Assembly (NCBI GenBank): GCA_943704415.1
Contig: CALSCO010000868.1
Span: 1 to 32,634 of the forward strand
Length of the DNA: 32,634 nt
Direction of reading: 5' to 3'
Source: Parvularia atlantis
Lineage: Eukaryota
Below, one piece after another: positions 10,043 to 32,520 of this stretch (the first letter of the stretch is position 1; the number at the start of each line of letters is the position of its first letter). A program made the position numbers and the translations under genes. Under the pieces are notes generated by a model, which saw only the letters and a program-made list of their open reading frames with translations, was not told the origin of the DNA and did no database searches.

Positions 10043-13000
10043 ATGCGGCTGGCCCCGCTCGTGTTCGTCGCCCTCCTGGGTGCGGCAGCGGCGGCCACCT
10101 CGGCGAGCGCGCAGGTGTGCACGTCGCAGGCCCAGCCGATCAGCGTCGTCGTGCCCGCAGGCTTCGTGAACCGTGCGCGCATCACTCGACTCGCGGCTCG
10201 CGGCTCACCGGCTCACCCGTGCCCGCGCGCGCGTGCACGCAGAGGGCTTCCAGACGGCCGTCGCGGGCCAGGCGATGCCCGCGTCGTCCACGTGCACCTT
10301 CGCCTTCTCCTTCGCCAGCACGCTCCCGTCCAGCGCCAGCCCCGAGCCGTACCCGCTGCTCGTCAACTTTGACTTCAACGGCGGCGCGACCAACTTTGGC
10401 GCGAGCTACGCCATCTACGACACGTCGACGCAGGCCACGCTCACCTCGGCCAACCTGCTGGTGCGCGCCCTCTGGGGGAAGAGGGGGGGGGAATTATTTC
10501 CTGAACCAACGCGCGCGGATACGCAGGGCACCTTCTCGGGCTCGACGTTCACGGTCAACACGAATGGCCCCAAGGCGCGCTACACCGGCCCCCCGGCCAA
10601 CGCGCAGTACACGACCACGTGGAACGGCGCGGACCTGCGCCTGCGCGCCATCTCGTTCGCCGTCGTCGTGACCTCGGGCGCGACGCCCCTCCCCGGCTTC
10701 CAGACGCTCGTGCAGATCGCGTCGCACGTGAGCGGCTACGACCTCGACAACGACGGCTACACCTGGCCCAGCTACGACTGCTGCGAGACCCAGCGCAACG
10801 ACACCGCGCTGACGGGCTACCCGGGCTGCTTCTACCCATCGCAGGTCAACATTGGCGCGTTTGAGATCGGCGGCAACGGCGTGGTCGACGCCGGCGCGGG
10901 CGCGAGCTGCACCGCGCGCTCGGGCGCGAGCAACAGCCTCACAAACGACGTGAGCGAGAGCCAGACGTGCTCGTTCGCCTCGGACGCGTGCAACGCCTAC
11001 TCGAGCTCGGGCCTGACCGGCGCCAACTGCCCGATCTACACCGGCACGCGCCTGCTCCAGGCGATGGACATCTGCCAGTTCAACCGCCCCTACACCGTCC
11101 CGCCGGCCCAGAGCGCGACCAGCCTGACGAACCAGTGGTCCGTCACCTCGTCCTCGCTCACCCTCGCCGACGGCACCTCGGCCTCGCGCGGCACGGTCAG
11201 CTACGTCGTCTACTCGGGCTATTACGGCTGCTACTGGTCCACGGCCACGGTCAACTGCGCCGGCCGGAGCAGCAACGCCAACTACTACGGCTTTGCCGAC
11301 CAGTCGGCCGTGCTCACGCCGGCCATGCTTGGCCAGACGGCCTTCTTCGCGGGCAACGTGATCGTGGGCGACACCATGGCCGTGCTCTCGACCGGCTTTG
11401 CGGCGTCGCACTCGGGCGCGTACTCGCTCGGCGGGTGCCTCACGTCGCGTTCGTCGGCCCTGCCCTGGTACAACGCCAAATGCAACTCGTACTACCCCAT
11501 CACGGCCAACGTGCCCTCGTCGTACCTGAGCAAGCACAACAACGTGCTCGAGACCTCGGGCGGGTGCAACACGGGCTCGGCCAGCGTGTACGACTCGATC
11601 ATGCTCACGGCCGTCATCACCGCCCCGACCAACGCGCTCTCGTTCAGCTACAACCTGCGTTTCCTCTCGCAAGAGTTCCCGTACTGGGTCTGCACCATCT
11701 ACAACGACTTTTTCCTCGCGCTCATGTCGTCCGACGACCCGCGCTACGGCACACCCGGCGTCGGCAACAGCCCCATCCCCGCCGACGGCAACATTGCCCG
11801 CGCGCCCTCGGGCGCGAGCACGGTCCCGCTCACGATCAACTACGACGCGTTCTTCACCGTGTGCCAGGGCAACCAGCGCAACAGCAACTACAACATCGTC
11901 GGTGCTGCCTGCGTCACCTCCACCTACAGCCAGCTCGTCAGCACCGGTGCGTCCCATTGGCATTGCGGGTTGGTGCTTGCTTGGCTGTTTGGTGGCACGC
12001 GCCCCTCTTGCTCGCCCCTGCCCTCCGCCCCGCCCTCGCACACACACACACACTCACCCCCCTCGTCCGCACAGGGTTCAACTTTGTGGACACCGAGCGG
12101 CCGTCTTGGACGTCGACGTCGGTCAACTTCAACGCGGGCGCGTCGTCGCAGATGCTGACCAACACGGTCAACGTAATCCCCAACAGCCAGTTCACCGTGC
12201 GCTTCCTCATCTTTGACGTGAGCGACTTCCAGTTCCAGAGCACGGTCGTGCTCGACGGCTTCCAGTGGAACGCCCTGCCCGTGCCCGCCGGCGGCTCTCT
12301 CGGCTTCCTCGACCAGTGCCCGACCGACCCGCTCAAGACCGCCCCGGGCATCTGCGGCTGCAACGTCGCCGACACCGACTCGGACGGCGACGGCGTGGCC
12401 AACTGCAAGGACGCGTGCCCGTTTGACAGCACCAAGACCACCTCGGTCGGCCTGTGCGGCTGCGGCGTGAGCGACGTCAACTATCTCGGAGCCGACCCGG
12501 CCTGCGCCACGACCATGCAGTGCTGTGCCACCGGCGGCTACCTCGGCGGCCGGCTCGCCTGGCAGCAGAGCGTCAGCAACGCCCGCGCCGACGAGATGCA
12601 GATCCTGGCCCAGCAGACCCTCGCCTCGGGCGCGTTCTGCGCCGGCTCCAACACGCCCACGGCCTTTGCGCGCTGCTCGACCGTGTCCCTCGCCGGCCAG
12701 ACGGCCGTCTACCCGTCCGTGGGCTCGGTCCTGCCCTCGCACTTCCTCAACTACGGCCTGCTCTGCCCGAGCGCGGTCACGGCCACCCCGGCCACGCCCT
12801 GCCCGGCCAACAGCCACGACGCCATCGTCGCCCTCGCCGCCACGGGCGCGTGGGTCGCCGCCAGCTCGGCCACGGCCTACCAGGGCTCGTACATCTACAT
12901 CAGTGGGCCCACCGCCGGCGCGTCCTACATCGTCAGCCTGCCCGCGGGTATGAGCGGCACGCTCTACATCTCGACCTACGCCACCAAGCCCACCGTCGCC

Positions 13001-16000
13001 CAGACGTTTGCGCGCATGACCGCCACCGTCACGTTCAACGGCGGTGCGTCCTCGGCCACGGTCAACTTTGTCCCGACCGGCCTCGGCTGGCGCGTCCTCG
13101 GCGCCTGGCAGTTCCTGGGCACACCCGCTGTCGAGCGCGTCGTCTTCACCACGGTCGACACGGGCGCGAGCTTCCTGCTCATGCTCAACGCCCTCCGCTT
13201 CACCTCGTACGACCCCGCGTGCGACCTCATGGACGCCACGGCCGCCCTCGGCGCCGCCCAGACTCTCACCTACTACACCTACCTGCCCGGCGGCACCGGC
13301 GCGCGCTTCGAGGCCGCCCCGCTCTCGGGCACGTGCACGCTCGACCTCTACGTCAACGCCAACGTCGACGTGAGCACAACGGCCTTCGTCTACCGCGATC
13401 TGGCCTCGGCCCGCCCCGCTACCGTCGCCAACGCCGCCGTCAACGTCGTCGCGGCCGCCGGCGGCCAAACTTTCGCCGTGCTCGCCGTCGTGGCCACGGG
13501 TTCGTGCACGCCCGAGATCCGCCGCTCGGTGCTCGTGCCCGCGACGGTCGTCAGCGTCAACGTAGCCGACAGCTACGTCGTTGCCCAGGCCTCGACCACC
13601 GTGCACTTCCCCGCCCGCGCCTGCGTCGCCAATCCGGCGCCCTACACCGTCGCGTTCGAGGGCCTCAGCCGCGACACGGGCACGGGCCTGCGCGGCCGCA
13701 GCTACCGCGTCAGCGCCTCGGTCGCCGCGCCCTACACCGCTGTCAACGCCAACGGGCGCTCGCCCGCGCTCGCCCTCCCGCCGCTCCTGCGCGTGCCCTC
13801 GGGCGTCGCGCTCAGCTTCCGCGGCTGGGGCGGCTCGGCCGTGGGCGGGTCGCTTTCGCAGGCGAGCGCGAGCGCGCTTAGTGCCAAGTTCTACCCGCAG
13901 CTGCCCGTTGCCACAGCCGGCGCGCCCGCTTCGAGCTCCTTCTCGGGCTCGTACTCGTTCGGCTACACGTACAACCTGCCCGCGCTCGGCGCCGACTACT
14001 ACCTAGCCTCGGCCGTCGTGACCGACAGCGGCGCCGTGAGCACGCACGACCTCGTCCTGCGCGTGCTCACGCCTGTTGGCGGCAACGTCAACCCGACCGT
14101 TACCATCGGCAGCCCCGTCAATCCACTCTTTCTCAACTGCCCCAATAGCTTCACCGTGACGGGCACGGGCGGCGGCAGCAATGCGGTCTACCTCGAGTAC
14201 GTGCCCCTGCCGAGCACGTGGGCCACGGGCGTGAGCACGGCCACGGCCTCAACCGCGACGACGGCCACGGCCACGATCAGCTTCACGCCGGTCGAGGCCA
14301 CCGCGCTCGCGCTGCTCTATGGCGCGTACGACCTCAAGAACGGCACGGCCTACGCCTCGACTGTGCTCACGCCCACCGCGCGCTCGTGCCCACTCAACAA
14401 CGGCGTGCAGTGCAACAACCGCGGCACGTGCACCTGCGCCGGCACGTGCCAGTGCAACGCGCGCTGGTCGGGCAACGCCTGCCAGACCTACGCCAACACC
14501 GCGCCCACCGTCAGCCCGAGTGCGTTCACGATCAACCAAAACTCGGGCCAGGGCACGTATCAGCTCGTGGCGAGCGACGCCGAGGGCGACGCCGTCACGT
14601 TCTCCAACCTCGTCGGCAGCCAGTTCCACGGCACGATCGCGCTCTCGGCCGCGGGCCTGCTCACGTTCACGCCCACGACCAACTACTTCTCGCCCACGGG
14701 CGCGCCCGACACGATCCAGGTCACCCTGACCGACAACGGTGTCGTGCCGGCCAGCGCCACCTACACCATCACGATCACGATCCAGAAGGTCTACGTGCGC
14801 CCGACCGTGCCCAACTTTGCCGCAACGGTGCAGGAAAACTGCGCGGCGACGTCGTGGAACCTCCTGAGCACGATCACCAACCCCAACGGCTACGCGCTCA
14901 CGTTCTCCCTCCCCGGCACGACCGGCAGCAAGGGCACGGCGTCGTTCGCGGGCTCGATGCTCACGTACGCCTGCGCCAACCTCCAGTACGGTGTCGACAC
15001 GATCCCCTTCCAGGTCAACGACGGCCAGGGCCAGGGCCCGACCGGTGCCAACATCGTCATGACCGTCACGTTTGTGCACCAGGCCCCGACCGTCGCCAGC
15101 TTCACCGTCAACACGGACGAGGACACGCCCGTCTCGCGCACGCTGCAAAGCAACAACATCGACGGTGCCCCGGCCGTGCACCAGATCCTCAGCCAGCCCG
15201 CCCAGGGCACCGTCGTCCTCACCAATGCCGCCACCGGCGCCTTCACCTACACCCCGCAGCAGTACAAGCCCGGCACGTACACGTTCACGTACAACCTGCT
15301 CGAGACGGGCGACGTGCCCGGCCAGCCCGGCACCGCGCGCCTCACGTCCAACACGGGCACCGTCACGCTCGTCGTCGCCCACGTCAACCACGCGCCCACC
15401 GCCCAGGCCGTCGCCATCCAGGGCCTCGAGAACGCGCCGTCAATCGCCGGCACCTACGTCGGCTCGGACAACGATGTCGGCGACACGCTCTCGTACGCCT
15501 ACGTCGCCGGCAGCCTCGCGCCAGCCGGCGCCGGCTCGGTCGTCGCCGGCAGCGGCGCCGCGTTCTCATTTGTGCCCGCGGCCAACTGGTTCGGCACGGC
15601 CACGTTCACCTACCGCGTCACCGACAACGGCGGCCTCTCGGGCACGGCCACGGTCACCGTGACCGTGCTTTTTGTAAACGTCGCGCCCATCGTCACGCTC
15701 AACGCGGTCACGGTCAACCAGAACGCGGGCACGGGCACGTACTCCCCGCTCTGGTCCAGCATCAACTTTGGGCCGAACGCGGCCGTGCTCAGCTTGCTCT
15801 CGGCCAGCGTCGCGGTCATGTCGGACCCGGCGGGCGTGTTTGCGTCGGCGCCCTCGCTCAGCAACGCGGGCGTGCTGTCGTACTCGGTCAAGCCTAACGT
15901 ATTTGGTGTGGCCACGCTCGCCGTCACCGTGCGCAACAACGGCGGCACAGCCAACGGCGGCGTCGACTCGTCCACGACCCAGACCACGTTCACCGTGCGC

Positions 16001-19000
16001 TTCGTCAACCAGGCGCCCTCGTTCATGTCTGTTGCCGTCGCGTCCGTGCCCGAGGACACGCCCGGCCAGGTCGCGCGCACCTTCGCCACCAACATCTCGC
16101 CCGGCCCCGCCGGCGAGAGCGTGCAGACAGTCGCGTTCAACGTCGTCACGGGCGTGTGCACGCCCATCGCCGCCGGCACGCTCTTTGCCGCCGCGCCGGT
16201 CTTTGGCGCGGACGGCATCGTGCGCTTCACGCTCAACCCGCTCTACTACAGCACGTGCACGTACACGATTAACCTGCAGGACAACGGCGGCACGGCCAAC
16301 GGCGGCGTCGACACGTCGGCCAACGCGGTCGTGACCATCACCGTCACGCCCGTGCCGCACGCGCCTGCGTTCAATGCCCTCGCCACGACATGGACCGTGC
16401 TCGAGTCGGCCACGGCCGGCAACGCCATTTCGCTCAACTTTGCCAACGGCATCTTCACGGGCTCGTCGCAGGAGACCGACACGATGGCCTTTGTCGTGTC
16501 GTCGAGCGGCTACACCGGCGCGGCGTACTTTGCCACCGGCCCATTCACGGCCACGCCCACGGTCGCGCCGGCCACGCCGGGCAGCACGGGTGTGCTCCAG
16601 GCGACGCAGCGCCAGTACGCCAACGGCAACGTCACGCTCTCTGTCATCCTGACCAAGCCCAACCTCTCGCCCGTGCTCTCCTCGCCCGCGGCCACGCTCA
16701 ACGTGCGCATCGTCCCCGTCAACAACGCGCCCAGCTTCACCCTGGCCACGCCCACGCTCTCGTACTACAACTCGGACGTGACCTCGACCACGACCGTGAC
16801 GGTGGCGACGGGCGCGGTGGCCGGGCCGGCGGACGAGGTCGCGACGCAAACGCTCGCGTTTGTCGTCACGCACGACTGCGAGGGCTCCGCGCCGCTTTTT
16901 GCGCAGCAGCCCACGGTGACGGTGCAGGGCACGGCCGGCGCGCAGACGGGCGTGCTCTCGTTCTCGATCCAGGCCTACCGCAGCACGTACCTGCTCAGCG
17001 GCGGCAGCTGCACGCTCAGCGTCGTCCTGCGCGACAGCGGCGACACGACCGACGGCGGCAGCAACGCCTCGCCCGCCCAGACCATCACGCTCACGATCAC
17101 CCCGGTCAACCAAGCGCCCAGCTTCACCGCGCCGAGCACGCTCACCTACACCCAGAGCGGCTCGGGCAACATCGTCGTGAGCACGCCCTGGGCCTCGGCC
17201 ATCTCGGCCGGCCCGTACGAGACCTGGCAGATAAGCTCTCTCGCGTTCACGATCACGACCGTGTCGGGCGCGTCGCTCTTTGCCGAGCTGCCGACGGTGT
17301 CGCCCGCGGGCGTGATTGCGTTCCAAATCAAGCCGCTCGTCTCGGGCTCGGCCACGTTCTCGGTCGTGCTCCAGGACGGCTACGGCACGGCGCACAGCGG
17401 CCAGGACACGTCGGCCCCGTTTAGCCTCGTCATCTCCGTGCCCAGCGCGACCTTCCCCGTCTCGTTCCAGATGGTCTCGGCCGTGACCGTGCCGATGAAC
17501 TCGGCCACGTACACCAACGCCGCATTCCTCACCGGCATCGACGCCTCATCGCTCCTCCTCGCGCAGTCGCTCACGGCCTCGGTTCAAGTCACGTCGGGCG
17601 CGAGCCTGCTCACGGGCACGCCCCAGGTCACGATCAGTCAGGCCAGCTTTGACGGCAACGGCGCCGGCGGCGTCGCGGCCGTCTCGTTCACGCCCGCGCC
17701 CGGCGTGACCTCGTTCGGCACCGTCACCTTCTCCGTCACGCTCTCGTCGTCCTCGTCCACCTCGGCCCCGCGCTCGGCCACCGTCACGATCACCTACGTC
17801 AATCAGGCGCCGACTTTTGCCATCCCGCAGCCGGCGCAGGTCGTGCAGGAGGACGTGGGCGCGGTGTCAGTGCCGGCCTTTGCCACGAGCATCATCGCGG
17901 CCGCGGGCAACCCCTACGGCACGACCGTGACCTTTGCCGTCACCTGCACCAACGCCGCCACGCTCTTCTCCGCCGGCGGCGCCCCGGCCATCTCGCCCCA
18001 GGGCACGCTCACGTTCACGTCGGCCGTGTCGGAGGTGGGCACGAGCGCATGCTCGGCCGTCGCCACCAACAACGGCAGCCCCGCGCTGTCGTCTGCCTCG
18101 GTGCCGTTCACGATCGAGTTCACCTACTGGAACCACGTGCCATCGTTCACCGCCGGCGCCGACCAGACGGTGCTGCAGAACGCGGGCACGGTCACGGTCG
18201 CGGGCTGGGCCACAGGCATCCTGCCCGGCCCGCCCAACGAGTACGCGCAGACGGTCGGCTTTGCGCTGACGGGCTTTGATGCGGCGCTGTTTGAGGTCGC
18301 GCCGACCCTGAACGTCGTCGGCACGTCGTACCCCAAGACGGCCACGCTTTCGTTCCGCGGCAAGACCAACGTCTACGGCAGCACCACGGTCACGGTCGTG
18401 CTGAGCGACTCGGAGGGCGCGTCGACCGCGGCGCGCTCGCTCGGCATCACGATCACGTTTGTCAACCAGGCGCCCTCGTTCGCGCTCTCGGCCAGCGCCA
18501 TCAGCGTGCCCGAGTACAGCGGCGCGCAGACCGTGCCGGGCTTTGTGCTCAACGCCGTGGCCGGCCCGGACAACGCGCTCGAGAACGCGCAGACGCTCAC
18601 CTGGATCGTCACGGCCAGCAACGCCGCGCTCTTCGCCAAGGATAGCAACAACCAGCCGCTGCTGGCGATCGTCGGCGGCGCGCTCGAGTACACGCTGGCC
18701 TCCGGCGTCTTTGGCACGACCACGCTCACCGTCACCGCGACCGACAACGGCGGCACGGCCAACGGCGGCCAAAACAGCTTCGCGCTCAGCTCGATCTCGC
18801 TCACTGTGACCTTTGTCAACCGCCCGCCCACGTTCACGTGCGGCGCGGCCACGGTGACGGTGCTGCAAAACTCGGGCGCCAACGCCGTCGCGGGCTGGGC
18901 TTCGGCCATCTCGCCGGGCGACCCAAGCGAGACCGCGACGCAGACCGTGACGTTCAACGTGACCGTGGACGCGGCCTCGCCCATGCCCGTCAGCGGCTTG

Positions 19001-22000
19001 GCCGTCGCGGGCGGCTCGGGCACGCTCAGCTTTGCCACGGTGACGCAGATGTGGGGCTCGGTCGCCGTGACGGTGCAGGCGTGTGACAGCCTCGGCCTAT
19101 GCTCGGTGCAGACGTGCCCCGCGACGCTGCAGGTGCTTTTCGTCAACCAGGCGCCGACGTTCACCCGCGCGCTCGCGACCGTGTCGGTGCTGGAGAACAG
19201 CGGTGCGAGCACGATCGCGGGCGTGTTCACGGGCATGTCGGCCGGCCCGGGCTACAACGAGGCCGCGACGCAGACGCTCGCGTTTGACATCACGGTCGTG
19301 TCGGCCTCGCCGTCCAACCTGCTCGTGGGCACGCCGACGGCCAACGCGGCCTCGGGCGCGCTCTCGCTGCAGCCGCGGGCCAACCTCTTTGGCAATGCGA
19401 CCCTGCGCGTGACCTTGCGCGACGACGGCGGCACGACCAACGGCGGCGTGGACACATCGGCGACGGCGACGGTGCTCGTGCAGGTGCTCTGGGTCAACCA
19501 GGCGCCCTCGGCCACGCTGCTGCAGTCGGTCGTGTCGATGCCGGAGAACAGCGGTGCGCAGAGCGTGAGCGGCCTGTGGAGCGCGATCAGCGCCGGCCCA
19601 GACAACGAGGCGTGGCAGACGGTCGCGTTCACCGTGATCGACACAAGCATCGCCAACCTCAACGCGCCGCGCGCACCCTTCACGCTCTTTGCCGTCGCGC
19701 CGGCGATATCGTCCGCGGGCGTGGTTACGTTCCTGACCAACGCGGACGCGTACGGCACGGCCACGCTCACCGTGCGCCTGCGCGACAGCGGCGGCACGGC
19801 CAACGGCGGCGTCGACACGGCGCCCGCGACCTTCACGCTGACGATCGACGTGACGCGCGTCAACCAGGTGCCCCTCGCCGTGAACGACCTCGCGACCACG
19901 CCCGAGAACCAGGTGGCGACGTTCGGCGTGCTGGCCAACGACTACAGTGACTGGGACTTTGACCTGGGCACGTTGACCCTGCGCGTGGCCTACATCGTGT
20001 CGGCGTCGGTGTCGTCGGGCACGGTCGTGACGGTAGCGGGCAACGGTCTGGGCGTGGTCTACACGCCGCGGGCCAACTGGTACGGCGTCGACACGTTCCA
20101 GTACGTCGCGACGGACGGCGCGTGCACGGCGTCGGCCAGCCTGTGCTTCTCGGCGCCGGCGACGGTGACGGTCAACGTGACGCACGTGTTCATCGCGCCC
20201 GTGACGCAGCCCGTCGCGTTCACGGTCGTGGGCGACGGCGTGTACACGTCGGCCGCCACGGCGCTCTTTGTCGCGTCCACACCCAACGCGGGCGACCCAA
20301 TCGCGTTTGCGCTGCAGTCGCAGCCGGCGCACGGCACGGCCTCACTCGTCGGCGGCGTGTTCACGTACACGCCCACGCTCTACTACTGCGGCCCTGACAG
20401 CCTCACGTACAGCGCGTCGTCAGGCCCGGCCGTGGGCAACACAAGCCCGGTCACGATCACCGTCACGTGCATCAACCACGCGCCCACGGCCAGCAACATC
20501 ACGGCGACGATGGACGAGAACACGGTCAGCAGCAGCGGCAAGACCGTCACCCTCGTGCTCTCGGTGGCCGACGTAGATGCGGCCGACCAGGGCCAGCTGA
20601 CGTACTCGTGCGCGGCGCCGGGCTTCGCCAAGGGCCAGTTCAGCCCCGCGGCAGGCGCGACAAGCGCGACGTCGGTCGCGATCGTCTACTCGCCCACGCC
20701 GTACAAGAACGGCGTCGACGCGATGCGCTGCACCGTTTCGGACCCCGCCGGCGCCACGGCGACGTTCTGGGCGATCGTGACTGTGATCGGCCCGGCGTTC
20801 CACAACCCGCACCTCGTCACGCCGCTCGTGCTCTCGGGCTACTCGGACGTGCCGGGCGCGGGCCAGCTGCAGGCGATCGACTACGACGGGCTCAACACGC
20901 TCGCGTACAGCATCCTCACACCCCCGCCGGCCTCGCTCTGCACCGTCAGCCTCAACACGACCACGGGCGCGTTCACCTACGTCTCAGCACGGCTCCAGTT
21001 TGGCCAGTGCAGCTTCACATGGACGGTCGTGACGGCGCAGAGCCTAGGCCCGGACAACGCACCGGGCCTGGTCCAGATCAACATCCAGGCGGTGCAGCAC
21101 AACCCGGTCACGTACGCGAGCACGCACACGGCGTACCAGAACTTTGTGCTCTCGAACCAGCAGCTCAACGTGACCGACCTCGACTCGAACCAGGCGGGCG
21201 CGGGTCTGACGGTGGCGGTCGTGACGAACACGCCCGCGTCGGCCGGCACGGTCGTGATCACCAACGCGGCCACGGGCGTGTTCCAGTTCACGCCGGCGAC
21301 CAACTACTTTGGAACGACCTCGTTCACGTACCGCGCCACGTCCAACTTTGGCATGCAGTCGAGCGTGACGACAGCGACGATCGTTGTGGTGCGCCTGAAC
21401 CAGCCGCCGACGGCGCAGAGCGGCACGGCAACGACGCCGATGAACACGCCCGTGAACGTGCTCCTGCCCTACACCGACATTGACACGCCCCTGGCCAACA
21501 TGACGTTCGCGATCTTGCAGGCGCCCACGTCGGGCACGGCCGCGATCAGCACCAGCGTGGCCCAGACGGCCGTCTACACGCCCGCGAGCAATTGGTACGG
21601 CGTCGACTCGTTCCGCTTCAGCGTGAGCGACGGCCAGTACACGGCCACGGGCACGATCACGGTCAACGTGACCTTTGTGCACTACCCGCCCACGGCGCAG
21701 GACGCGACGTGGACCGTCCCGGCCAACACGGTGTACCAGGACCAGCTCTCGATCGCCTCGTTCCAGTTCCCGCAGACGCTCACGGCCGTGCTCTTTGGCG
21801 CGGGCCCGCAGAACGGCTCGGTCGTGTTCAACGGCGGCACGCCCTTCCTTGTCACATACACGCCGCGCACATCGACCGACCCCAACTACGCCTCGACCGA
21901 CTCGTTCCAGTTCCGCGCGTTTGACGGCACGCTCTACTCGGCCGTGAGCACCGTGCGCATCTCGATCACGCGCTCGCCCTTCCGCGCCCCGACTGCGGCC

Positions 22001-25000
22001 TCGTTTGCCGTCTCGGCGCAGCAGGAGCAGCCGTACGCGTTTGTGCTCCAGGGCGCCGACCCCAACACGCCCGCGCTGCCGCTCACGTACTCGATCGTCG
22101 CCGCGCCAACCCTGGGCACGCTCAGCGGCCTCGGCGCGGGCACGGGCCAGGTCACATACACGGGCGCGAGCAACAAGTGGGGCACCGACACGTTCACGTA
22201 CAAGGTCAGCAACGGCTACTACTCGTCGACCGTGGCCGCGGTCACGGTCAACGTGCTCTACGTCAACAAGCCGCCGCTGGCCGCGTCGCTCTCGTTCACG
22301 ACCAACGAGAACACGGCCCTGTCGGCGCAGCTCTCCGCTACCAACATTAACGGGCCGGGCCCGCTGCGCTACATCCTCACGGTGCCGACAACGTCGGGCA
22401 CGGTCGCGGTCAACGACGTGACGGGCCAGTTTACCTACACGCCCAGCACGTACTTTTACGGCACCGACTCGTTCCAGTACAAGGCCTTTGACGGCGTGGG
22501 CTACTCGACCACGGCGGCCAAGGTGACGATCACGGTCGTCAACGTGCACCAGCCGCCGATCCCGACCAGCGCAAGCATCGTCACGCGCGAGGACGTGCCG
22601 TACACGGGCACGCTCGCGTGCTGGGGCCCGGACTCGACCACGTACCGCTTCTACATCACCGCCAGCCGCGTCCTCGGCTCGGTCACGGTCGACCGCCTGA
22701 CGGGCCGGTACACGTACATGCCGCCGCCGGCCTGGTCGGGCGCGGACGAGTTTGCGTTCACGTGCGACGACACGGTCCTGTCGTCGACTGGCCCGGGCAC
22801 GGTCTCGGTCACTGTCACGCACGTCGACCGCGCGCCCGAGGCGCTGGCGCAGACGGTCAACGGCCAGCAGAACCAGGCCGTCTCGGTCACGCTCACGTCG
22901 TACAACCGCGACAACCTGCCCGTGACCTACACCCTGCTCTCGCTCACGACCGTGCGCGGCGGCACGCTCCAACAGACCAGCGTCGGCTCGCCCGCGCTCG
23001 TCTACACACCCCCGAGCCAGTTCTTTGGCACAGACTCGTTCTCGTTCACGTGCAACTCGGGCTCACTCGCCTCGCCCGCGCCGGCGCTCGTCACGCTCCA
23101 GATCGCCCACGTCAATCAGCCGCCGACGGTGAGCCCGCTCGTGCTCTCGATCGCCGTGAGCACGTCGACCATCGTGGCCGTGCCGTCGTCGGACCCGGAC
23201 CTGGTCTGCTGCGATGACACGCTCATGCTCGCGGCCCTGCCAACCGCGGCCATGGGCAACGTCGCCTTCGTGCCCGACCCGCCCGCGGCGTTCTTGTACA
23301 CGGCGCGCACAACGCCGGGCACCGAGACGCTCACGGTGACGGTGCGCGACCGCGAGGGCCTCACGGCCACGACGACGGTGACGATCTACATCACGGGCGC
23401 GTCGGTCGTGCCGCCGGTGATTTCGGACCTCAAGTGGTTCGGCACGGAGGACCAGCAGCTGCGCGACACGCTCGCCTGGGGCATCGTCCGCGCCACGTCC
23501 AACGTGGTTAGCTACACCGTGTCGGGCCTGGACGGGAGCATTGCTGCGCTCGACGCCTCGACCAATGCCGCGACGGGCTTTGTGGCGCTCAACCTGCGCC
23601 AGTACTACTTTGGCACGTTCTCGTTCAAGTACCAGGTGCGCGACGCCAACAACGCCGTGAGCAATGTCGCGACGGTCACGGTGACGATCGACGAATAGTG
23701 CGTGCTCTTTTTGGGCGGCGACGCTTGACTGACTTTTGTGCGCACGCGCAGCCCGTACGCGCCCACGGCGTACCCGCGCACCGTCACGATCAACCAGGAC
23801 ACGACGGCGTCGTTCACGCTGCAGGCGTCGGACGTGAACGGGCACAACAGCTTTGTCTTCTCGGTCGCCTCGACGGGCAACGCGCAGCAGGCGACGATCA
23901 GCCTCGACTCGGCCAGCGGCGCGTGCACGTTCAAGCCGCCCGCGGGCCGACACGACACGTACGTCTTCTATTACCGTGTGTTTAACGGCTTCACGTTCTC
24001 GGCCCCGGCCGCGGTCACGGTCGTGGTCAACAAGGTGTACGCGGCGCCGGTGGCGCAGTCGGCCACATACGAGGCGCCGCAGAACGCGGCCGTGTCGGGC
24101 GTGCTCCCGTGCAGCCAGGTGGACGGCCTGACGCTGAGCTTCGCCTGGGTCGGCGGCCAGCCGCAGGCGCTGCTGGCGCTGGGTGAGCTCGAGAGCAACC
24201 AGATCGAGGGCACGTTCACGCTCACGCCGACGGGCGCGATCTTTGGCACGTTCACGGCGCAGTTCTACTGCTCGGCGCAGACCCCGGCCGGCAGCACGCT
24301 CACGAGCAACACGGGCACGATCACGGTTGTGCTCACGTACGTCAACAAGCCGCCGACCGCGTTCGACCTGCCGCTGTCGTGGCCGCAGGCGACCTACCTC
24401 AACGCGGCGACCTACTCGGCGCGCGTGACAGCGCTCGACCCGCAGGACGGCGCCAACCTGCGCGCGTTTGTGCAAAACAGCGACCCGAGCTACGGCGCGC
24501 TCTCGTTCGCTTCCGACGGCACGTTTGACTACGCCCCCGCGATCAACTACGTCGGCCAGGACAGCTTCACATTCTACGCGCTCGACGTCGAGGGCCTCCA
24601 GTCCAACGTCGCCACGGTGACGATCACGCTCCTGGCCGTGCGCGTGCCGCCGCTGGCGCGCGTGGTCACAGTCAACGTGGACGAGGACTCGTCGGTCGAG
24701 GGCCAGCTCGAGGGCGTGTCGGCCTACCCAGACAGCGTCACATACACAATCAAGGTCGCGCCCGTGTACGGCACACTCGACCTGCTCGACGCGAGCGCCG
24801 GCACGTTCCGCTACACCCCGCGCGCACTCTACCACGGCAGCGACTTTGCGGCGTACACGGTCACGGACAGCGACGGGTCGACCGTGCTCGAGTCGTCGAT
24901 CGCGTCGGTGGCGATCCAGGTGGCCCACATCAACCACGCGCCGGTCGCGCGCAACTTTAGCATCACCGCGACGGCCGGCGTCAACTACGTGGGCGAGTGG

Positions 25001-25672
25001 GACGGCTCGGACGTGGACGCGGGCGACGTGCTGACGGGCGTGCCTGTGGCGAGCGCGACGACGGCGGGCACGGCTTCGACCGAGAGCGGCCTCGCGTTCA
25101 CGTACCTGCACCCGGCCACAGCCGCGGCGACGACAGACGTGGTCGCTTTCTACGTGCAGGACCAGACCGGCACGACGTCGGACGTGGCCTACATGACCGT
25201 GACGGTGCTGGCGGCGCCGCCGGTCGCGCCCACGATGGGCGAGAGCAACAACAACACGACCGGCACCAACATTGCCGGCGCGGCCGTGGGCGCCGTGCTC
25301 GCGGCGCTCGTGCTCGTGGCCCTGGCCGCGCTCGCCTGGTACCGCTACCGCGAGGCCTACGCCGTGTCGAGCTTCCAGAAGGAGGCGATGGTCGCCGCGG
25401 CCAACATGTCCAACTCGAACCCGCTCTACGTCGGCATGACCAACGAGTTTGTGTCGCCGCTCTACCAGGACCCGTCGAGCAACCGCGACCACATCTGGGA
25501 GCGCCAGCCGTCGGCAGGCACGGTCCGCCAGGCGCCCACGGGCACAGTCGAGGACCTCTACCGCGATGCGCCCACGCACGGCGGCGCCGCCCGCGGCTCG
25601 CAAGGCTTTGTCGGCGCGCGCTCGCTCCAGCAAGAGACGTTCTTAAACCCGCTCTTTGCGAGCGACGACTGA
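10043..25672 (+). CDS. Giant type I membrane adhesion receptor (~5,103 aa, 5 exons) with bacterial-type Ig/cadherin-like repeats and an integrin-beta/Sib-like NPxY tail
   Basis: Signal peptide MRLAPLVFVALLGAAAAATSASA. Introns 10173-10242, 10461-10526, 11947-12074 and 23698-23751 join four separately called ORFs into 15,312 nt of continuous frame. Modules: choice-of-anchor-L-like, TSP3-like, golvesin-like, EGF-like, about 30-35 Ig-like repeats, a TM helix at 25271-25339, and a tail with NPLY, SPLY and NPLF. Confidence 0.88.
14490..25210 (+). repeat. Tandem array of roughly 30-35 diverged ~95-125-aa Ig-like (Big_9/tandem-95/cadherin-like) protein repeats
   Basis: Recurring VNQAPxF/VNHAPTA linkers, YTPxxNWYGxDxFxY cores and D[ND]GGTANGGVD loops. 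Confidence 0.85.
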
Positions 25673-26487
25673 GCCACCACCATACACCTGTTCTGTTTCG
25701 TTCTTTTGTTCCCTGTTTCGTTCACATGGTCAAAACAGCAGCACTCAAGTGCACGTCACGGTAGCGAGTGGTCGCAGCGATGGTTCTGAGGGACGCAGTT
25801 GAAGAGCCGTCGGCAGTGAGGCGCACTGCCCTATTCAGTTCAAGTTGGCGCCAAAGCAGCCGACGAGCAGAGAACCGTCGTCCAGCGCGCACACACACCA
25901 AGACGATTCGCAGTTGATCGTTTGCTCCATCATGATCACGCCTGCAGTGCCTCGCAGCATGAGCTTGTTCAGGTTGAACAGGAAAACCCAGACTAGGCGC
26001 CACGGCAAGGCCGTACGGGCCCGCCTGACGTCGCCACGCTGCGCAAAACTGCAGACGCGTGATTCTCAGGCTGGTCCGCCACCGTGACGACCAGCTGCCA
26101 GTGGCCGTGGCCGGTGAAACTGCAGCCTCAGGCTGCCCGTGAGCGATAGGGCCCGGGCCGTGCAAACTGTCCAGCTGCATTCAGGTTGCCACTTGTGCCG
26201 TTCCCGATCGTGGGCACGGGCTGGCCGAGCGTGCGGTAGTCGCGCGTCGGTCGAGCGGGTGCGGCGCAGGTCTCTTGCCGCTCCCAGTTGCCCGACCGAC
26301 AGACGTATAAGACTTCGTGGTTCGTAAGCGACGGAAGACACACAACACAGGGGGTGGGGCACAAGGCCGAGATGGCTGAGGTAAGCGGGTGAGGTAAGAC
26401 GATGACAAGAGATGACAGACGGCAGTCGACAAAAGTGACACTCATCAGCCATGCAGTGCACCTGTTTGGCACCACGGGACGCACAGC

Positions 26488-27318
26488 ATGCCCGCGATAG
26501 ATGACGCGATGCGCTGGGCGACACTCGCGGTCGGCTGGGACCAGGGCCGGCGCTACGACCGCGCGCTCGTGGCGTACGACGAGGCGGCCGGGGCGTGCCT
26601 GCGTGCGCTACGCGACGGTGCGTGTGCCGCCGGGCGCGTGCGGGCGGCGGCGGCGGAGAAAAAGGCGCTGAGAAATATGTCCGAAATGCGCCGCCGGTCG
26701 GGACGCGCGCGCGCAGACAGCCTGGACGAGGAGACGCGCGCCGCCGTCCGCGCCAAGGCCAACGAGTACCGCAACCGCGCCGAGCTGCTGCGCTCGCACG
26801 CCGGGAGCGTGGACGTGTCGCGGCCGGCGCGTGCGCCACTGCTTGACGTGGACGCGTTCGAGTTCGACAACCCGCTCGACGTGACCGTGACGGACCAGGT
26901 CGTGGCGACCGCCCTCGCCTCGTTCGCGCACCTGCGCAGCAGCGGCGTGCTGGACGCCGTCGTGCGCTCGGCCGCGCTCGCCGTCGAGCTGTGCCGCATC
27001 GTCGACGCGCGGCTCGGCATCAGCGCGGCCGTGGGCGACGCGCTGCGCCGGTGGCTCCCGTTCGGGTCGGACGGCAGCGGGAGCAGCGGGAGCAGCAGCC
27101 GCAACCGGCGCATCACGGCCGAGTTTGTTGCGGGCTCGCCCGCGGCGCACTACGCGGACCCGGCGCCGTCGCCTGTCGAGCAGCCGCACGACCCGCCGCC
27201 CGCGTCGGTCGCGCCTGGGCTGATGTCGTGGTCGTCCTCGTCGTCGTCGTCGGCACGTACGTCGTGGGCCGAGGCAGCGACGCCACCGCACAGCGCAGGT
27301 GCGACGGCGTGGCGGTGA
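26488..27318 (+). CDS. MIT-domain protein (N-terminal three-helix MIT), 2 exons
   Basis: AIDDAMRWATLAVGWDQGRRYDRALVAYDEA...AVRAKANEYRNRAELLR fits the MIT pattern (AvxxD, AxxxY, KxxxYxxRAExL) once the in-frame GTGCGT...GCAG intron 26618-26716 is removed. Confidence 0.8.
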   Translation: MPAIDDAMRWATLAVGWDQGRRYDRALVAYDEAAGACLRALRDGACAAGRVRAAAAEKKALRNMSEMRRRSGRARADSLDEETRAAVRAKANEYRNRAELLRSHAGSVDVSRPARAPLLDVDAFEFDNPLDVTVTDQVVATALASFAHLRSSGVLDAVVRSAALAVELCRIVDARLGISAAVGDALRRWLPFGSDGSGSSGSSSRNRRITAEFVAGSPAAHYADPAPSPVEQPHDPPPASVAPGLMSWSSSSSSSARTSWAEAATPPHSAGATAWR

Positions 27319-27352
27319 GCAATGTGTGCGATCATGTACAGTGCGTCATTCA

Positions 27353-28508
27353 TCAGCTCGGTGCTGGCTGCTGCGCGCGCCGTGAGCGTGCATGAGCGTG
27401 CGTGAGCGGCACGGCAAGCACGCAAGCGAACGCACGGCAGGGCTGGCGTCGGGTGCGGCGAAGCGCGCAAAGCGGTCGGCGGAGGCCGTGTGGACGAAGT
27501 AGCGAAAGTGCTTGGCGACGTCGAGCGCCGTGAGGCCGGCGTAGGGGCGCGTCAGTCCGACCTGCCCGATCGCCGTGCCGCCCGACAGCACGTAGAAGGC
27601 CGTGCTGAGCACGCTGTCGTCGCGGCTGTAGTAGACGAAGGTGCGGTGTCGCGCGAGGCCGTCGAGCATTACCGTGCACTCGCTCTGCGCGCGGCGCCGT
27701 GCTGCGTGAGTAGTCGTTGGTGCGCGTCCTGGCGTCCCCACACCTCGCGCATCGCAGCGGCGTTGAGATGCAGCACGTCTGGGCGCTCGGCCGGTGTCAT
27801 CGCCGCGACGGCGACGATGGCGTGGCGGCAGCCGAGCGAGTGCGCGACGAGGCGGACGCGGTCGTGGCGGGTGCGCAGCGTGAGCAGGTGCTGCGCAAGG
27901 TCGTCGGCCTGCTCGTGCGCGTAGTGCGTTGCGAGCCAGTACTGGTACGCGAGTCGTCCTTGCGGCGTGCACGCGAGCGATCAGCAGCAGCAGCAGTAGC
28001 GGCGGCAGCAGGCGGGTCGCGCGCGCACCTGCGATCTGCACCAGGTCTGCGCCGGCGACGCCCGCGAGCGCCGCGGGAGTGGCCCAGCGCAGCGGCGTGC
28101 GGCGCAGGGCGAGCAGCAGGCCCGAGGCGATGGTGGCGACGGGCAGCGGGAAGGCCGAGAGCGAGTTGAAGACGCCCGACTGCCACGTGTGGCCTGCGCG
28201 CGCGAGCTCGTCGTGAGCACGCGCCGCGAACGGCGGACGACGACGCGGACCGGCGCAGAGCGGGCCCCAGCGGTGCGTCTCGAGCAGTGCCAGCTGCATG
28301 TGCGCGCGGAACCACGCCGCGAACGACTCGTGCGTCTCGCCCTGGGCCAGGAAGCCCTGCGCCGCGCCCGTCAAACCCTCGCAGCCGGACGCAGCCGGAC
28401 GGGCGGACGATGGCGCGCCTTGATGTAGACCGTCGCCTCGCGCTCGGCGTCGGCCGCGGCACGCGTCAGCACCGTGTAGGGCGGCGCGACCACCCGCGCC
28501 GTCCGCAT
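27353..28508 (-). CDS. DUF726/DUF900-like alpha/beta hydrolase, 6 exons
   Basis: The spliced product contains TVYIK/GFL, GHTWQSG, nucleophile elbow VRLVAHSLGCR, LHLNAAA, VYYSRDDSVL and AIGQVG. Introns: 28357-28418 (GC-AG), 28194-28250, 27959-28028, 27685-27743, 27371-27435. The terminal exons are less certain. Confidence 0.75.
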
Positions 28509-28535
28509 TGGCGGCGCAGATCGAAGCTGACTCGG

Positions 28536-29331
28536 ATGTGCGGTCTGCACTGGACGCTGCGCCTGCTGCGGGACGACACGGACGACGCGGACGACGCGGA
28601 CGACGCGGACGACGCGGACGACGCAGACGACGCAGACGTCGACGTGGAGATGGACCGGCTGCTGCGCCGCCGCGGCCCCGACAGCGCCGCCGTCTGCACC
28701 ATCCGCACGCCCGGCGCGCGCCTCGTCTGTCGCTGCGCCGTGCTCGGCCTCCGCGGGCGCGCGCCCGAGCCGCAGCCGCTGCGCGCCATCGACGGCGACG
28801 GCGACGACGACGGCGACGCGCTCGCGTGGAACGGCGAGGTGCTGGACGGGCCGCTGCTGCCGCGCGACGCCGACGCCAACGACGGCCGCGCCGTGCTCGA
28901 CGCGCTGCGGGCCGCGGACGAAGGCGACGACGAGGGCGGCGTGGCGCGCGTCGTCGCTGCGCTGCGCGGGCCGTGGGCGATGGCCTGGTGGGACGCACGC
29001 CGCGCGCGCCTGTGGTGGGGCCGCGACGCACTCGGCCGCCGCAGCCTGCTCTGGCGCGTCGACGGCGCTGGGCGTGTCCTGCACCTCGCCTCGGTCGGCG
29101 CCGCAGTGCGCGACAATGACGACGGGGACGACGACGGCGAGGGCGACGAGCGCGATCAGCCGGCGGACGTGTGGCGCGAGGTGCCCGCGCACGGCCTGTT
29201 CTACGTCGACGTGCGCGCCGGGATCGACCGCCTCGACAACGCCGTGCGCGTCGTGCGATGGGGCAGCGCCGCCCTGCCGCGGCCGTTCGGCGCCGTCTGC
29301 GTCGACGTGGACGATGCGCCCCCGGGCAACA

Positions 29332-29379
<48 letters not shown>

Positions 29380-30327
29380 TGGACGGTGGCGGAGTGGTGG
29401 TGCTCGACACGTTGGAGCGGCTGCTGGACGACGCCGTGCGCCGCCGCGTGCGCCTCGTCGCGCCTGGCACGCGTGTCGCTGTGCTGTTCTCGGGCGGACT
29501 CGACTCGACCGTGCTCGCGCGCCTTGCCAGCCGACACCTCGCCTCTGACGCGCCGCTCGACCTGCTCAACGTCGCCTTTGCGGACGACGGCCGCTTTGAT
29601 GCCGTGCCGGACCGCGTCACAGCCCGCGCGGCCGTTGCCGAGCTGCGCGCGCTCGACCCGGGGCGCGACTGGCGGCTCGTCACCATCGACGTGACAGGTG
29701 CCGAGGTTGAGGCGGCGCGCGGGCACCTGCGCCGGCTGATCGCGCCGTGCCGCACCGTGCTCGACCTGTCGATCGCCACGGCGCTGTGGTTCGCCGCGCG
29801 CGGCCACGGACGCGTGGACGGCAACGACGCGCCCTACACCAGTCCCGCGCGCGTCGTGCTCTCGGGCATCGGCGCCGACGAGCAGCTTGCGGGCTACAGC
29901 CGGCACTGGGCGCGCTTCCACTCGCACGGCTGGGCCGGCCTGGTGCACGAGGTGCGGCTCGACGTGGAGCGGATCGCGTCGCGCAACCTCGGTGCGCCGC
30001 CGGTCGTCATTCGTTCTCTGGCTGCCTGATGTTGTGTTTTGCGCAGGCCGCGACGACCGCGTCATCTCGGACCACAGCCGCGAGGTCCGCGCGCCGTTCC
30101 TCGACGAGGCCCTGGTCGACTCTCTCAGCGCGCTGCCCGTCTGGCGCAAGGCCGACCTGCGCCTCGCCCGCGGCGTCGGCGACAAGCGTTTGCTGCGGCA
30201 GCTCGCGCTCCGGCTGGGGCTCAACGGCACGGCGGCGGCGCCCAAGCGCGCGATCCAGTTTGGCTCGCGCATCGCCAAGCTCGCCGGGGCACCGCGAGGA
30301 GCGAGGGGCTCGGACGCCGTGTCATGA
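28536..30327 (+). CDS. ASNSD1: Asparagine synthetase domain-containing protein 1 (ASNSD1/YML096W-like), 2 exons
   Basis: Ntn-type start MCGL, then [48 protein letters not shown], spliced RNL/GRDDR (intron 29992-30046) and [10 protein letters not shown]. Confidence 0.93.
28572..28634 (+). repeat. Seven copies of a 9-bp GACGACRCR unit encoding (DDA)n in ASNSD1
   Basis: GACGACACG, then GACGACGCG x4, then GACGACGCA x2. Confidence 0.92.
29334..29378 (+). repeat. (GAC)15 microsatellite encoding poly-Asp in ASNSD1
   Basis: Direct read of the sequence. Confidence 0.95.
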
Positions 30328-30360
30328 CCTCTCGCGCACACAGAGCAATGCGCAACGCAC

Positions 30361-31290
30361 TCACAGCGCCTGCGCAGCCGCCACGCGCTCGCGCCACGCC
30401 ACGAGCTCGTCCGGCGACGCGCTGAGCAGGCGAGGTCAGCCGAGCCAAAGTGCATGCGAGCGCACACGCACCTGCGCGCCGAGTAGCACTGGAAGACGCG
30501 CTCGCGCTGGTCGCTGTTGCGCGCGCGCGTGCCGTTGATGAGCCGGCCGACGACGCGCATGGGCGTGCCAAGCGGGGCAAGCGGGCTGCGCAGGCGGTAG
30601 TCCATTTCGTAGAAGACGCAGGGCAGGACGGCGAGCGCGGCGGCGGGCGTGCCGAGCGACTCGACCAAGGTGAAGCGGCGGCCTACGTTGTCGCCGCCGC
30701 CGTGGTTGCGCTGGACCGAGTGCAGGTGCCCTAGCCGGCGCAGTGAGAATCCACAGAGCGCGCAAGGCACGACGGCGCACCAAAGACCTCGACGGCGGCG
30801 ACAGTCTCGGGCGGGAGCAGCGCGTAGGCGAGGGCCGTGTCGGGCTCGGCGAGGACGCGGGCGATGGTGCGCGGCACGACACGGCCGTCGCGCGCATAGT
30901 TGACGACGTCGACGAGCACGGCTGAGCGCGGTGGCGCGCTGGCGGCGGTGGCGGCGGCGCGCGGCGGCTGCTGGCGGCGGACGGGCGCGGGCGTCGGCGT
31001 CGGCGGCTGCTGCGGCGCGAGGGCGCTGAGGTGCCTGGCCGAGAAGGCGCCGACGTGCGGGCGCAGCTGCCGCATGGGAGCGTGGCGCGTGAGTCGTGGC
31101 GCGGTCGGTGCGGGGCGGCGCGCACCGGCGTCGTGCGGGTCGCGTCGAGCGCGAGGTCGCCGCCGGACGTCTGGGTGAGGACGCGGTTGAGCGGGCGCGG
31201 CGTGCCGTGCGGCGGGCGGGGCGGGCGGCCGTCGTCGAGCGCGTCGTCGGCACCGTCGTCGGCGCGGCGCGGGAGGGCGACGGGGCGCAT
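30361..31290 (-). CDS. SPATA22: SPATA22-like OB-fold protein (putative meiotic ssDNA-binding partner of MEIOB), 4 exons
   Basis: Introns 31067-31125, 30731-30780 and 30422-30471 give VEVFGHLHS...RRFTL...LPCVFYEMDYRL...MRVVGRL...FQCYSARSASPDE. This parallels the SPATA22 C-terminal pattern (FEV...LDS, LPCVFYEIDR, RCVG, FxCVSVRPAS). The N-terminus is low-complexity. Confidence 0.72.
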
Positions 31291-31294
31291 GGGG

Positions 31295-32158: not shown

Positions 32159-32165
32159 GCCGAAG

Positions 32166-32507: not shown

Positions 32508-32520
32508 GCGCGCCGGCCCC

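What the first reader, a model, noticed from the sequence alone, without database searches (positions are those of the whole stretch)
25271..25672. GxxxG transmembrane helix plus integrin-beta-spaced NPLY / SPLY and a third terminal NPLF
Seen: the TM IAGAAVGAVLAALVLVALAALAW contains GAAVG and is followed by YRYREAYAVSSFQKEAMVAAANMSNSNPLYVGMTNEFVSPLY. NPLY and SPLY start 12 residues apart, and FLNPLF lies near the C-terminus. Known: integrin beta tails have a membrane-proximal FEKE helix, then NPxY (talin) and a second NxxY (kindlin) about 12 residues later. Inference: this is a conserved or convergent talin/kindlin docking tail with an extra FxNPxF endocytic or PTB-type motif.
Basis: partly seen in the sequence, partly recalled or inferred. 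Interest (0 to 1): 0.75.

Follow-up and report, generated by a model that had tools for sequence, protein, structure and literature searches.

The report
Giant Sib-like receptor with integrin tail
A probably single-celled eukaryote encodes a spliced, 5,103-amino-acid surface protein that is not an integrin yet ends in the conserved double NPxY tail of integrin beta chains, so it likely grips the actin skeleton through talin, as the slime-mould Sib adhesion receptors do.

Summary
The stretch is the C-terminus of a five-exon, 5,103-aa type I membrane protein; all four introns are skipped in contigs of one run. It has a signal peptide, a head of bacterial-adhesin-type modules, one EGF, 34 Big_9/tandem-95 repeats, one GxxxG helix and a 111-aa tail. 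Two distant orthologues (53% and 41% identity) keep GxxxG and the NPLY–NPL[YF] pair 12 residues apart; one keeps the terminal FxNPLF. The tail scores below the Integrin_b_cyt cut-off, but 5 of 6 PDB hits of the family profile are integrin-beta tails, in register. No vWA, MIDAS or PSI was found, so it is neither an integrin nor a bona fide Sib. A split SibA-N-terminal-like domain is moderately supported. Best reading (0.55): an integrin-independent adhesion or prey-capture receptor whose first NPLY docks talin. Main rival (0.33): an endocytic or sorting tail. Kindlin is unlikely, being reported only in animals. Talin binding, host talin and host lineage were not testable. Verdict: new variant of a known kind.

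The parts
10043..25672 (+). Whole gene, five coding exons: 10043-10172, 10243-10460, 10527-11946, 12075-23697, 23752-25672; product 5,103 aa
   Evidence: Four GT..AG introns of 70, 66, 128 and 54 nt give one open frame. Contigs of run X2 (guessed RNA) skip all four; X1 contigs run through them (tables 5 and 8).
9947..10007 (+). Probable 5' UTR intron (61 nt; the ends may shift by up to 5 nt)
   Evidence: Joint in an X2 contig, GT..AG with cut +5
10043..10111 (+). Signal peptide (aa 1 to about 23), inferred
   Evidence: Second most hydrophobic window, at aa 3; no signal-peptide predictor was run
11571..11843 (+). Choice-of-anchor-L-like segment (weak)
   Evidence: NF038133 E=2.6e-5, 23.8 bits, below cut-off 27
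12308..12505 (+). Cys/Asp-rich TSP3-like repeats (aa ~668-733), weak
   Evidence: TSP_3 E=0.012, below cut-off; partly conserved in P0010
12539..12604 (+). First half of a putative split SIBA-E_N-like domain (aa ~745-766)
   Evidence: Second-best of 54 windows against a profile of bacterial PF24907-type proteins; aligns to template positions 4-24; P=2% on its own
12830..13117 (+). Golvesin_C-like domain inside the insertion
   Evidence: E=7.7e-5, below cut-off; 38.7 bits, above cut-off 31.6, in P0005
13544..13792 (+). Second half of the putative SIBA-E_N-like domain (aa ~1080-1162), followed by two Ig-like units collinear with the bacterial module
   Evidence: Best of 54 windows, P=31-33%; module aa 1100-1365 P=84% over 225 columns; Pfam does not call it
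14387..14482 (+). EGF-like domain
   Evidence: EGF_2 25.5 bits, above cut-off 22.1
14483..25180 (+). Stalk of 34 Big_9 / tandem-95 (bacterial cadherin-like Ig) repeats, aa 1393-4940, crossing intron 4
   Evidence: Big_9, Cadherin_4/5 and NF012211 above cut-off; 34 units in both this protein and P0005 by an iterated profile
25271..25336 (+). Single transmembrane helix with GxxxG at its outer end (aa 4971-4992)
   Evidence: Hydropathy; 12 of 22 and 15 of 22 residues identical in P0002 and P0005; helix with pLDDT 78-92 in the model
25337..25417 (+). Membrane-proximal segment with FQKE, predicted helical
   Evidence: Aligns to the FEKE/FEEE helix of integrin beta; second helix only pLDDT ~55; conserved in P0002, not in P0005
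25418..25429 (+). Motif 1, NPLY (aa 5020-5023), predicted talin/PTB site
   Evidence: Invariant in all three family members
25454..25465 (+). Motif 2, SPLY (aa 5032-5035); NPLY in P0002, NPLF in P0005
   Evidence: 12 residues after motif 1 in all three
25493..25567 (+). Two further conserved tail blocks, IWERQ and EDLYRD, role unknown
   Evidence: Identical in P0002; only D-x-Y of the second is left in P0005
25634..25657 (+). Motif 3, ETFLNPLF (FxNPxF) at the C-terminus
   Evidence: 7 of 9 identical in P0002 against 4 of 19 in the linker before it; not present as such in P0005

Best explanation
This is the membrane anchor and tail of a giant, spliced, single-pass surface protein that likely works as an integrin-independent adhesion or prey-capture receptor, with its first NPLY predicted to dock the talin F3 (PTB-fold) domain and so tie the long outer stalk to actin, as in Dictyostelium SibA. 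Shown: the gene model and splicing; the type I layout; 34 repeats; conservation of GxxxG and the motif pair in two distant orthologues; in-register likeness to integrin-beta tails; no vWA head found. Inferred: the head (aa 24 to about 1390) binds surface or prey; the 34 Ig-like units hold it roughly 100-150 nm from the membrane (about 4 nm per unit, recalled); motif 1 binds talin; motifs 2 and 3 (FxNPx[YF]-like) bind a second FERM/PTB adaptor for turnover or recycling rather than kindlin; no alpha subunit is needed, since none of the three tails has the HDR[KR]E motif.
For: Orthologue conservation peaks on the motifs: against P0005 the double motif is 8 of 16 identical, its flanks 2 of 27 and 5 of 36; against P0002 motif 3 is 7 of 9, its linker 4 of 19. 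With a profile of the three orthologues, 5 of 6 PDB hits at E<=10 are integrin beta-7, beta-1, beta-1D and beta-3 tails (E 0.06-0.33), with TM end, FEKE and both NPxY in register. Integrin_b_cyt is hit in each of the three, below cut-off. 0 of 119 other listed repeat-sharing proteins, bacterial where named, end in a TM plus NPxY tail. The twin motif occurs 3 times in 1.9 million six-frame residues of 142 held sequences, each time in this family. Precedent: SibA has two NPxY and a Gly-rich TM, and its proximal NPxY is needed for talin A binding (PMC9197732 passages); SibA-talin bears force, and amoebal lectins with integrin-like tails are proposed to do so (PMC12686525 sections 10 and 12); tails of a protist integrin recruit human talin through NPxY (PMC6450878 passages). 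The head shows moderate likeness to the SIBA-E_N module.
Against: No binding was tested. No host genome is held, so host talin is unknown, and the lineage is unproven. All profile scores to integrin tails are below significance or cut-off. The Trp that precedes NPxY in the aligned integrin tails is replaced by Met, Met and Phe. The membrane-proximal helix is not conserved in P0005. Motifs 2 and 3 fit the FxNPxY endocytic consensus (recalled) as well as or better than a kindlin site. Only three independent family members were found; the 13 members of the P0005 cluster have identical tails. The SIBA-E_N likeness is not called by Pfam, was weak by HMMER (2.3 bits), and whole-length hhalign put its best match elsewhere (P=60%).
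Confidence: 0.55

Rival explanations
1. The tail mainly serves uptake and sorting: a giant scavenger-type receptor (LRP/megalin-like logic, recalled) whose NPxY and FxNPx[YF] motifs bind clathrin adaptors or sorting nexins, or another FERM/PTB protein such as a MyTH4-FERM myosin, rather than talin. This can coexist with the best reading.
For: Motif 2 is preceded two residues earlier by F (window) or M (P0005), and motif 3 by F (window, P0002). Three motifs in a 111-aa, mostly disordered tail. Further conserved Trp/Tyr blocks have no integrin counterpart.
Against: The first motif lies 27 residues after the TM, with an FxKE helix before it and a second motif exactly 12 later, which is the integrin-beta register. 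No LDL-receptor-family chain appeared among the 8, 21 or 6 PDB hits at E<=10. Motif 3 is lost in P0005 while the pair is kept.
Confidence: 0.33
2. It is a highly derived integrin beta chain or a true Sib family member that lost its vWA domain, so the tail is directly inherited rather than a reused module.
For: In-register TM-plus-tail likeness to integrin beta. A SIBA-E_N-like domain, Ig units and one EGF lie in the N-terminal part, and the two halves together give P=81%, score 37.0 against a null maximum of 19.5 in 60 pairs.
Against: No vWA, Integrin_beta, PSI or vWA_SIBA hit in any segment scanned. The only DxSxS in the protein (aa 257) lies in a Cys-rich stretch with no vWA signal. SIBA-E_N also occurs in bacteria (2 of 301 and 1 of 301 genomes over cut-off), so a shared domain need not mean shared descent from Sib. 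No Sib sequence was available for a direct comparison.
Confidence: 0.09
3. The motifs are a chance pattern in a low-constraint tail, or the ORF end is an artefact.
For: Single-sequence scores are weak (PDB E=1; Pfam E=0.008-0.03). The window contains a mis-join elsewhere.
Against: Motifs are conserved at 41-53% overall identity. One X1 contig spans 19790-26243 and one X2 contig 23752-25682, both with no mismatch. Shuffle rate 2.5e-5.
Confidence: 0.03

Closest known systems
Dictyostelium SibA-SibE (similar to integrin beta)
   Same: Type I protein, Gly-containing single TM, two NPxY motifs in the tail, EGF/Cys-rich unit, and probably a SIBA-E_N-like N-terminal domain followed by Ig units.
   Different: No vWA domain found; 5,103 aa with 34 tandem-95 repeats; SIBA-E_N-like domain split by a ~310-aa insert with a Golvesin_C-like domain; ~740 extra N-terminal residues; longer tail with a third motif. 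Sib was reported only in dictyostelids (bioRxiv 10.1101/2020.04.29.069435, passage).
Integrin beta cytoplasmic tail (Pfam PF08725; beta-1, beta-3, beta-7)
   Same: TM end, FxKE-type helix, NPxY, then a second Nxx[YF] 12 residues later, in register.
   Different: Below the Pfam cut-off; no HDR[KR]E; no Trp before motif 1; tail runs ~68 aa past motif 2; none of the integrin ectodomain domains.
Bacterial tandem-95 / VCBS / Big_9 giant adhesins
   Same: The stalk is 27-37% identical to them over long stretches; choice-of-anchor-L-like, TSP3-like and SIBA-E_N-like modules also occur in bacteria.
   Different: Spliceosomal introns, an EGF domain and a TM plus NPxY tail; 0 of 119 listed relatives have such a tail.
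Acanthamoeba mannose-binding protein and Entamoeba Gal/GalNAc lectin
   Same: Non-integrin adhesion receptors with integrin-like tails proposed to use talin (PMC12686525 section 12).
   Different: No homology was tested here; different ectodomains as described.
LRP1/megalin-type giant endocytic receptors (recalled)
   Same: Very large single-pass protein with several NPxY or FxNPxY motifs.
   Different: No LDLa or YWTD domains in the Pfam scans; motif spacing is integrin-like.

Membership tests
Integrin beta subunit | vWA-type beta-I domain with MIDAS/SyMBS | tested here: not met
   No such Pfam hit in exons 2-5 or in P0005; a single DxSxS without vWA context. Definition from bioRxiv 10.1101/2020.04.29.069435 passages.
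Integrin beta subunit | PSI domain and repeated Cys-rich (I-EGF) stalk | tested here: not met
   One EGF only, 3,600 aa from the membrane; EGF_integrin E=0.11, below cut-off.
Integrin beta subunit | Alpha-subunit-binding LLxxxHDR[KR]E motif | tested here: not met
   Absent from 3 of 3 tails; P0002 has a partial RR..S.FEKE likeness.
Integrin beta subunit | Proximal NPx[YF] and distal Nxx[YF] in the tail | tested here: met
   3 of 3 family members, 12 apart; the window has Ser for Asn in motif 2.
Integrin beta subunit | Integrin_b_cyt above the curated cut-off (23.4 bits) | tested here: not met
   16.3, 14.5 and 12.7 bits at best.
Sib (SibA-E) | Extracellular vWA domain | tested here: not met
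   As above.
Sib (SibA-E) | SIBA-E_N N-terminal domain (PF24907) | tested here: inconclusive
   No Pfam call. Profile-profile against 4 bacterial proteins (3 above the PF24907 cut-off, 1 below): top 2 of 54 windows are the predicted halves, P=81% with the insert left out (boundaries chosen after seeing the match). Whole-length comparison did not recover it.
Sib (SibA-E) | Gly-rich / GxxxG single TM | tested here: met
   GAA[VI]G in 3 of 3.
Sib (SibA-E) | Two NPxY motifs in the tail | tested here: met
Sib (SibA-E) | Tail binds talin through the proximal NPxY | not testable with these tools
LDL-receptor family | LDLa repeats and YWTD propellers | tested here: not met
   None in the Pfam scans.
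Tandem-95 repeat protein (NF012211) | Score above cut-off 90 | tested here: met
   444.7 and 104.8 bits for two segments; this names the stalk only.

The most novel reading that the evidence does not exclude
The host lies on the fungal side of the opisthokonts, a branch reported to keep talin-type scaffolds in several basal members but to lack integrins and known adhesion molecules. This family would then be a missing talin anchor there: a Sib-related receptor outside the dictyostelids, built from bacterial adhesin modules with a fixed 34-repeat stalk, showing that the integrin-beta tail is a portable talin-docking unit reused on unrelated ectodomains. The fungal-side placement rests on recalled family signatures of two neighbouring genes, not on a tool result.
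Probability: 0.3. Interest if true: 0.78.

Novelty: new variant of a known kind. Interest (0 to 1): 0.58.

Why it matters
Talin is widespread in unicellular relatives of animals and fungi that have no integrins, and what it holds on to there is an open question. [quoted passage not shown] This family gives a concrete, conserved tail that can be tested with a simple chimera or pull-down. The principle (a non-integrin receptor with an integrin-like tail) is already known from amoebozoans, which caps the surprise.

Tried and rejected
Host genome: none held, so no talin search and no proteome scan for other tails. Word-index searches with the tail (longer proteins) and with exon 3 found nothing; weak evidence by the tool's own note. 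P0003 was dropped: an Ig_7 repeat protein matched through a short repeat. P0004 has a similar TM and twin motif but is a 121-aa fragment with no shared ectodomain, so it was not counted as an orthologue; adding it lifts the integrin-beta hits to E=1.5e-4 (15 of 21 hits), and I relied on the profile without it. Atlas: tail hits all below 0.9; the hydrolase neighbour gave mostly bacterial clusters, no lineage signal. No RNA holder was listed on record; X2 is only guessed to be RNA. X3 holds a small share and was not used. Single-sequence fold of the head region failed (pLDDT 34), so no fold search was run. TM-plus-tail homodimer prediction gave no answer. Viral contigs: 0 of 103 candidate stretches confirmed. 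Genome contigs: 76 prokaryotic loci matched, none reaching the tail. PF24907 search: 0 of 5, 3 of 301, 0 of 301, 1 of 301 and 1 of 251 genomes at E<=0.001; L132 and L141 were below cut-off and left out. Lineage: V-ATPase F exon scores 51.6 bits against the 119-aa chains, 46-47 against the 128-130-aa chains and 40.2 against the 117-118-aa chains (mammal, plant and yeast by recall), suggestive only; zinc-finger, tRNA and Rfam scans gave no lineage signal. Three papers were not held, among them the original SibA paper. Own-findings look-ups by place and sequence were empty.

Full report
1. Observation. All quoted residues are present in the + frame ending at the stop at 25670-25672. NPLY starts at 25418, SPLY at 25454 and NPLF at 25646. 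In 200,000 shuffles of the tail the twin pattern appears at 2.5e-5 and three motifs at 6e-5, whereas GxxxG appears in 7.8% of shuffled helices. The patterns were picked after the fact, so I weight conservation more than these rates.

2. What the stretch belongs to. It is the end of one long eukaryotic gene. Four GT..AG introns (70, 66, 128, 54 nt) join exons from 10043 to 25672 into a 5,103-aa frame. Contigs of run X2, which the tool only guesses to be RNA, skip all four introns and a fifth in the 5' UTR; contigs of X1 run through them. The order is: signal peptide (inferred from hydropathy); about 450 residues without a family; a weak choice-of-anchor-L segment; weak TSP3-like repeats, a Golvesin_C-like domain and one EGF; 34 Big_9/tandem-95 repeats; one TM helix; a 111-aa tail. 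The model of TM plus tail shows a confident TM helix, a weak second helix up to motif 1, then disorder.

3. Relatives. A search of 1.84 billion representatives with the C-terminal 147 aa gave 4 hits at E<=0.001. P0002 is a C-terminal fragment, 53% identical over 358 aa. P0005 is a near full-length orthologue, 41% over 4,395 positions, also with 34 repeats; its cluster has 13 members with identical tails, counted as one. P0004 is a fragment of unknown ectodomain, and P0003 is a spurious repeat hit. The P0005 gene lies in loci L001 and L002 beside a CBS/PB1 gene broken by intron-like gaps, so its host is also a eukaryote. Among the 120 listed of 195 long proteins sharing the last repeats, those with names are bacterial adhesins, and 0 of the 119 besides P0005 end in a TM plus NPxY tail.

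4. The tail. GAA[VI]G and NPLY are kept in 3 of 3 members, and motif 2 follows exactly 12 residues later as SPLY, NPLY or NPLF. Against P0005, identity is 15 of 22 in the TM, 2 of 27 before motif 1, 8 of 16 over the pair and 5 of 36 after it. Against P0002 it is 11 of 27, 9 of 16, 19 of 36, then 4 of 19 in the linker and 7 of 9 at motif 3. So the pair is the invariant core, while the FxKE helix and motif 3 are kept in only one orthologue. Integrin_b_cyt is hit in all three members, always below its 23.4-bit cut-off. The best PDB hit of the window tail is integrin beta-3 (E=1), and 5 of 6 hits of the three-member profile are integrin-beta tails, in register (E 0.06-0.33). The alpha-binding HDR[KR]E motif and the Trp before NPxY are missing.

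5. The head and Sib. A recalled resemblance to the SibA N-terminal domain was tested indirectly, because no Sib sequence was at hand. Pfam did not call PF24907 in 8 sub-segments. I collected four bacterial proteins of this type (three above the PF24907 cut-off) and compared profiles. Aa 1100-1365 aligned collinearly over 225 columns (P=84%, score 46; 30 shuffles at most 19.5), but ordinary stalk repeats scored as high through the Ig part (up to 54). With the N-domain alone as template, the best two of 54 windows were the two predicted halves, aa 1065-1145 and 745-825. They match the template's C- and N-terminal parts, and together give P=81%, score 37 against at most 19.5 in 60 random pairs. 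Against this: HMMER gave 2.3 bits, whole-length hhalign placed its best match elsewhere, and I chose the boundaries myself. I rate a split SIBA-E_N-like domain as probable, not shown. The domain also occurs in bacteria, so it does not prove descent from Sib. No vWA domain was found in the window protein or in P0005, so it fails membership of both integrin beta and Sib.

6. Mechanism. SibA's proximal NPxY is needed for talin A binding (PMC9197732, passages), and the SibA-talin link carries force (PMC12686525, abstract, introduction and sections 10 and 12). A protist integrin tail recruits human talin through NPxY (PMC6450878, abstract and passages). By analogy the head would bind substrate or prey at the tip of a stalk of fixed length, and motif 1 would dock talin F3 and couple to actin (inferred, 0.55). 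Kindlin is reported only in animals (PMC4325847, abstract and passages), so motif 2 more likely serves another FERM/PTB adaptor. Motifs 2 and 3 also fit the recalled FxNPxY uptake signal, which is the main rival (0.33).

7. Host. No genome is held and the lineage is not shown. Short introns, compact eukaryotic neighbours and a mis-joined bacterial stretch suggest a protist grown with bacteria (inference). The neighbouring Bem46/ABHD13-type hydrolase and Sfp1-type zinc finger look fungus-side to me by recall only; searches did not decide it. If so, the family bears on a stated gap: basal fungi keep talin but lack integrins (PMC5042518, abstract and passages), Holomycota lack integrins and Sib was not seen outside dictyostelids (bioRxiv 10.1101/2020.04.29.069435, passages), and Fonticula alba has no obvious adhesion molecules (PMC9097593, passages). 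Whether talins on that branch keep a FERM head was not established; the word FERM does not occur in PMC5042518.

8. Novelty. Ten full-text searches showed no listing that describes this family. The library lacks most subscription papers and the original SibA paper, and I read no supplements; domain tables in genome-paper supplements could list the protein as cadherin-like. Also seen as passages, without bearing on the verdict: PMC10846614, PMC9453864, PMC13366479, bioRxiv 10.1101/2023.12.07.570557. A non-integrin receptor with an integrin-like tail is a known kind. The vWA-less 5,100-aa architecture from bacterial adhesin modules, with a conserved repeat count and a three-motif tail, appears to be a new variant. 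Interest 0.58.

Noticed in passing
window 31295-32634: Probable assembly mis-join: a bacterial stretch (LysR regulator; next ORFs look like a small DUF1127-type protein and the start of tyrosyl-tRNA synthetase, by recall). In run X1 the host contig (depth 160) stops matching at 31295, and a depth-6 contig with a different left flank covers 31294-31929. It cuts a host gene on the minus strand.
   Followed up: yes
window 26194-26362: Short multi-copy element between the receptor and the MIT gene: summed contig depth rises to ~6,650 in X1 against ~180 in the flanks, with many loose ends.
   Followed up: no
window 30474-30728 (-): The reading frame resembles the SPATA22 meiotic OB-fold protein by recall; Pfam gave no hit.
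   Followed up: partly
window 26448-28420: One X2 contig runs from the + strand MIT-domain gene (intron 26617-26715, GT..AG) into a minus-strand hydrolase-like gene (CT..AC introns), suggesting convergent, overlapping 3' ends.
   Followed up: no
window 6900-9550 (-) and 1770-3900 (+): Intron-containing GH92 alpha-mannosidase and Peptidase_S15/PepX_C genes, families common in bacteria (recalled); possible older gene transfers.
   Followed up: no
window 363-436 (-); 495-1601 (-); 3942-5093 (-); 5099-5590 (+); 5843-6700 (-); 28287-30350 (+): tRNA-Asn, two-finger C2H2 protein, RING protein, V-ATPase subunit F, ABHD13/Bem46-type hydrolase and an ASNSD1-type gene (subfamily names recalled).
   Followed up: partly
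P0004 (121 aa): An unrelated fragment with TM plus NPLY-8-NPLY scores 22.3 bits on Integrin_b_cyt, just under the cut-off, and hits integrin beta-3 at E=0.02; a hint that the tail occurs on other proteins.
   Followed up: partly
L130, L131, L140: Bacterial secreted proteins carry the SIBA-E_N domain above cut-off, L140 also Ig_SIBA-E_2nd, so the Sib head module has bacterial counterparts.
   Followed up: partly
L001 9544-11263 (-): Single-frame GMC oxidoreductase two genes from the orthologue.
   Followed up: no
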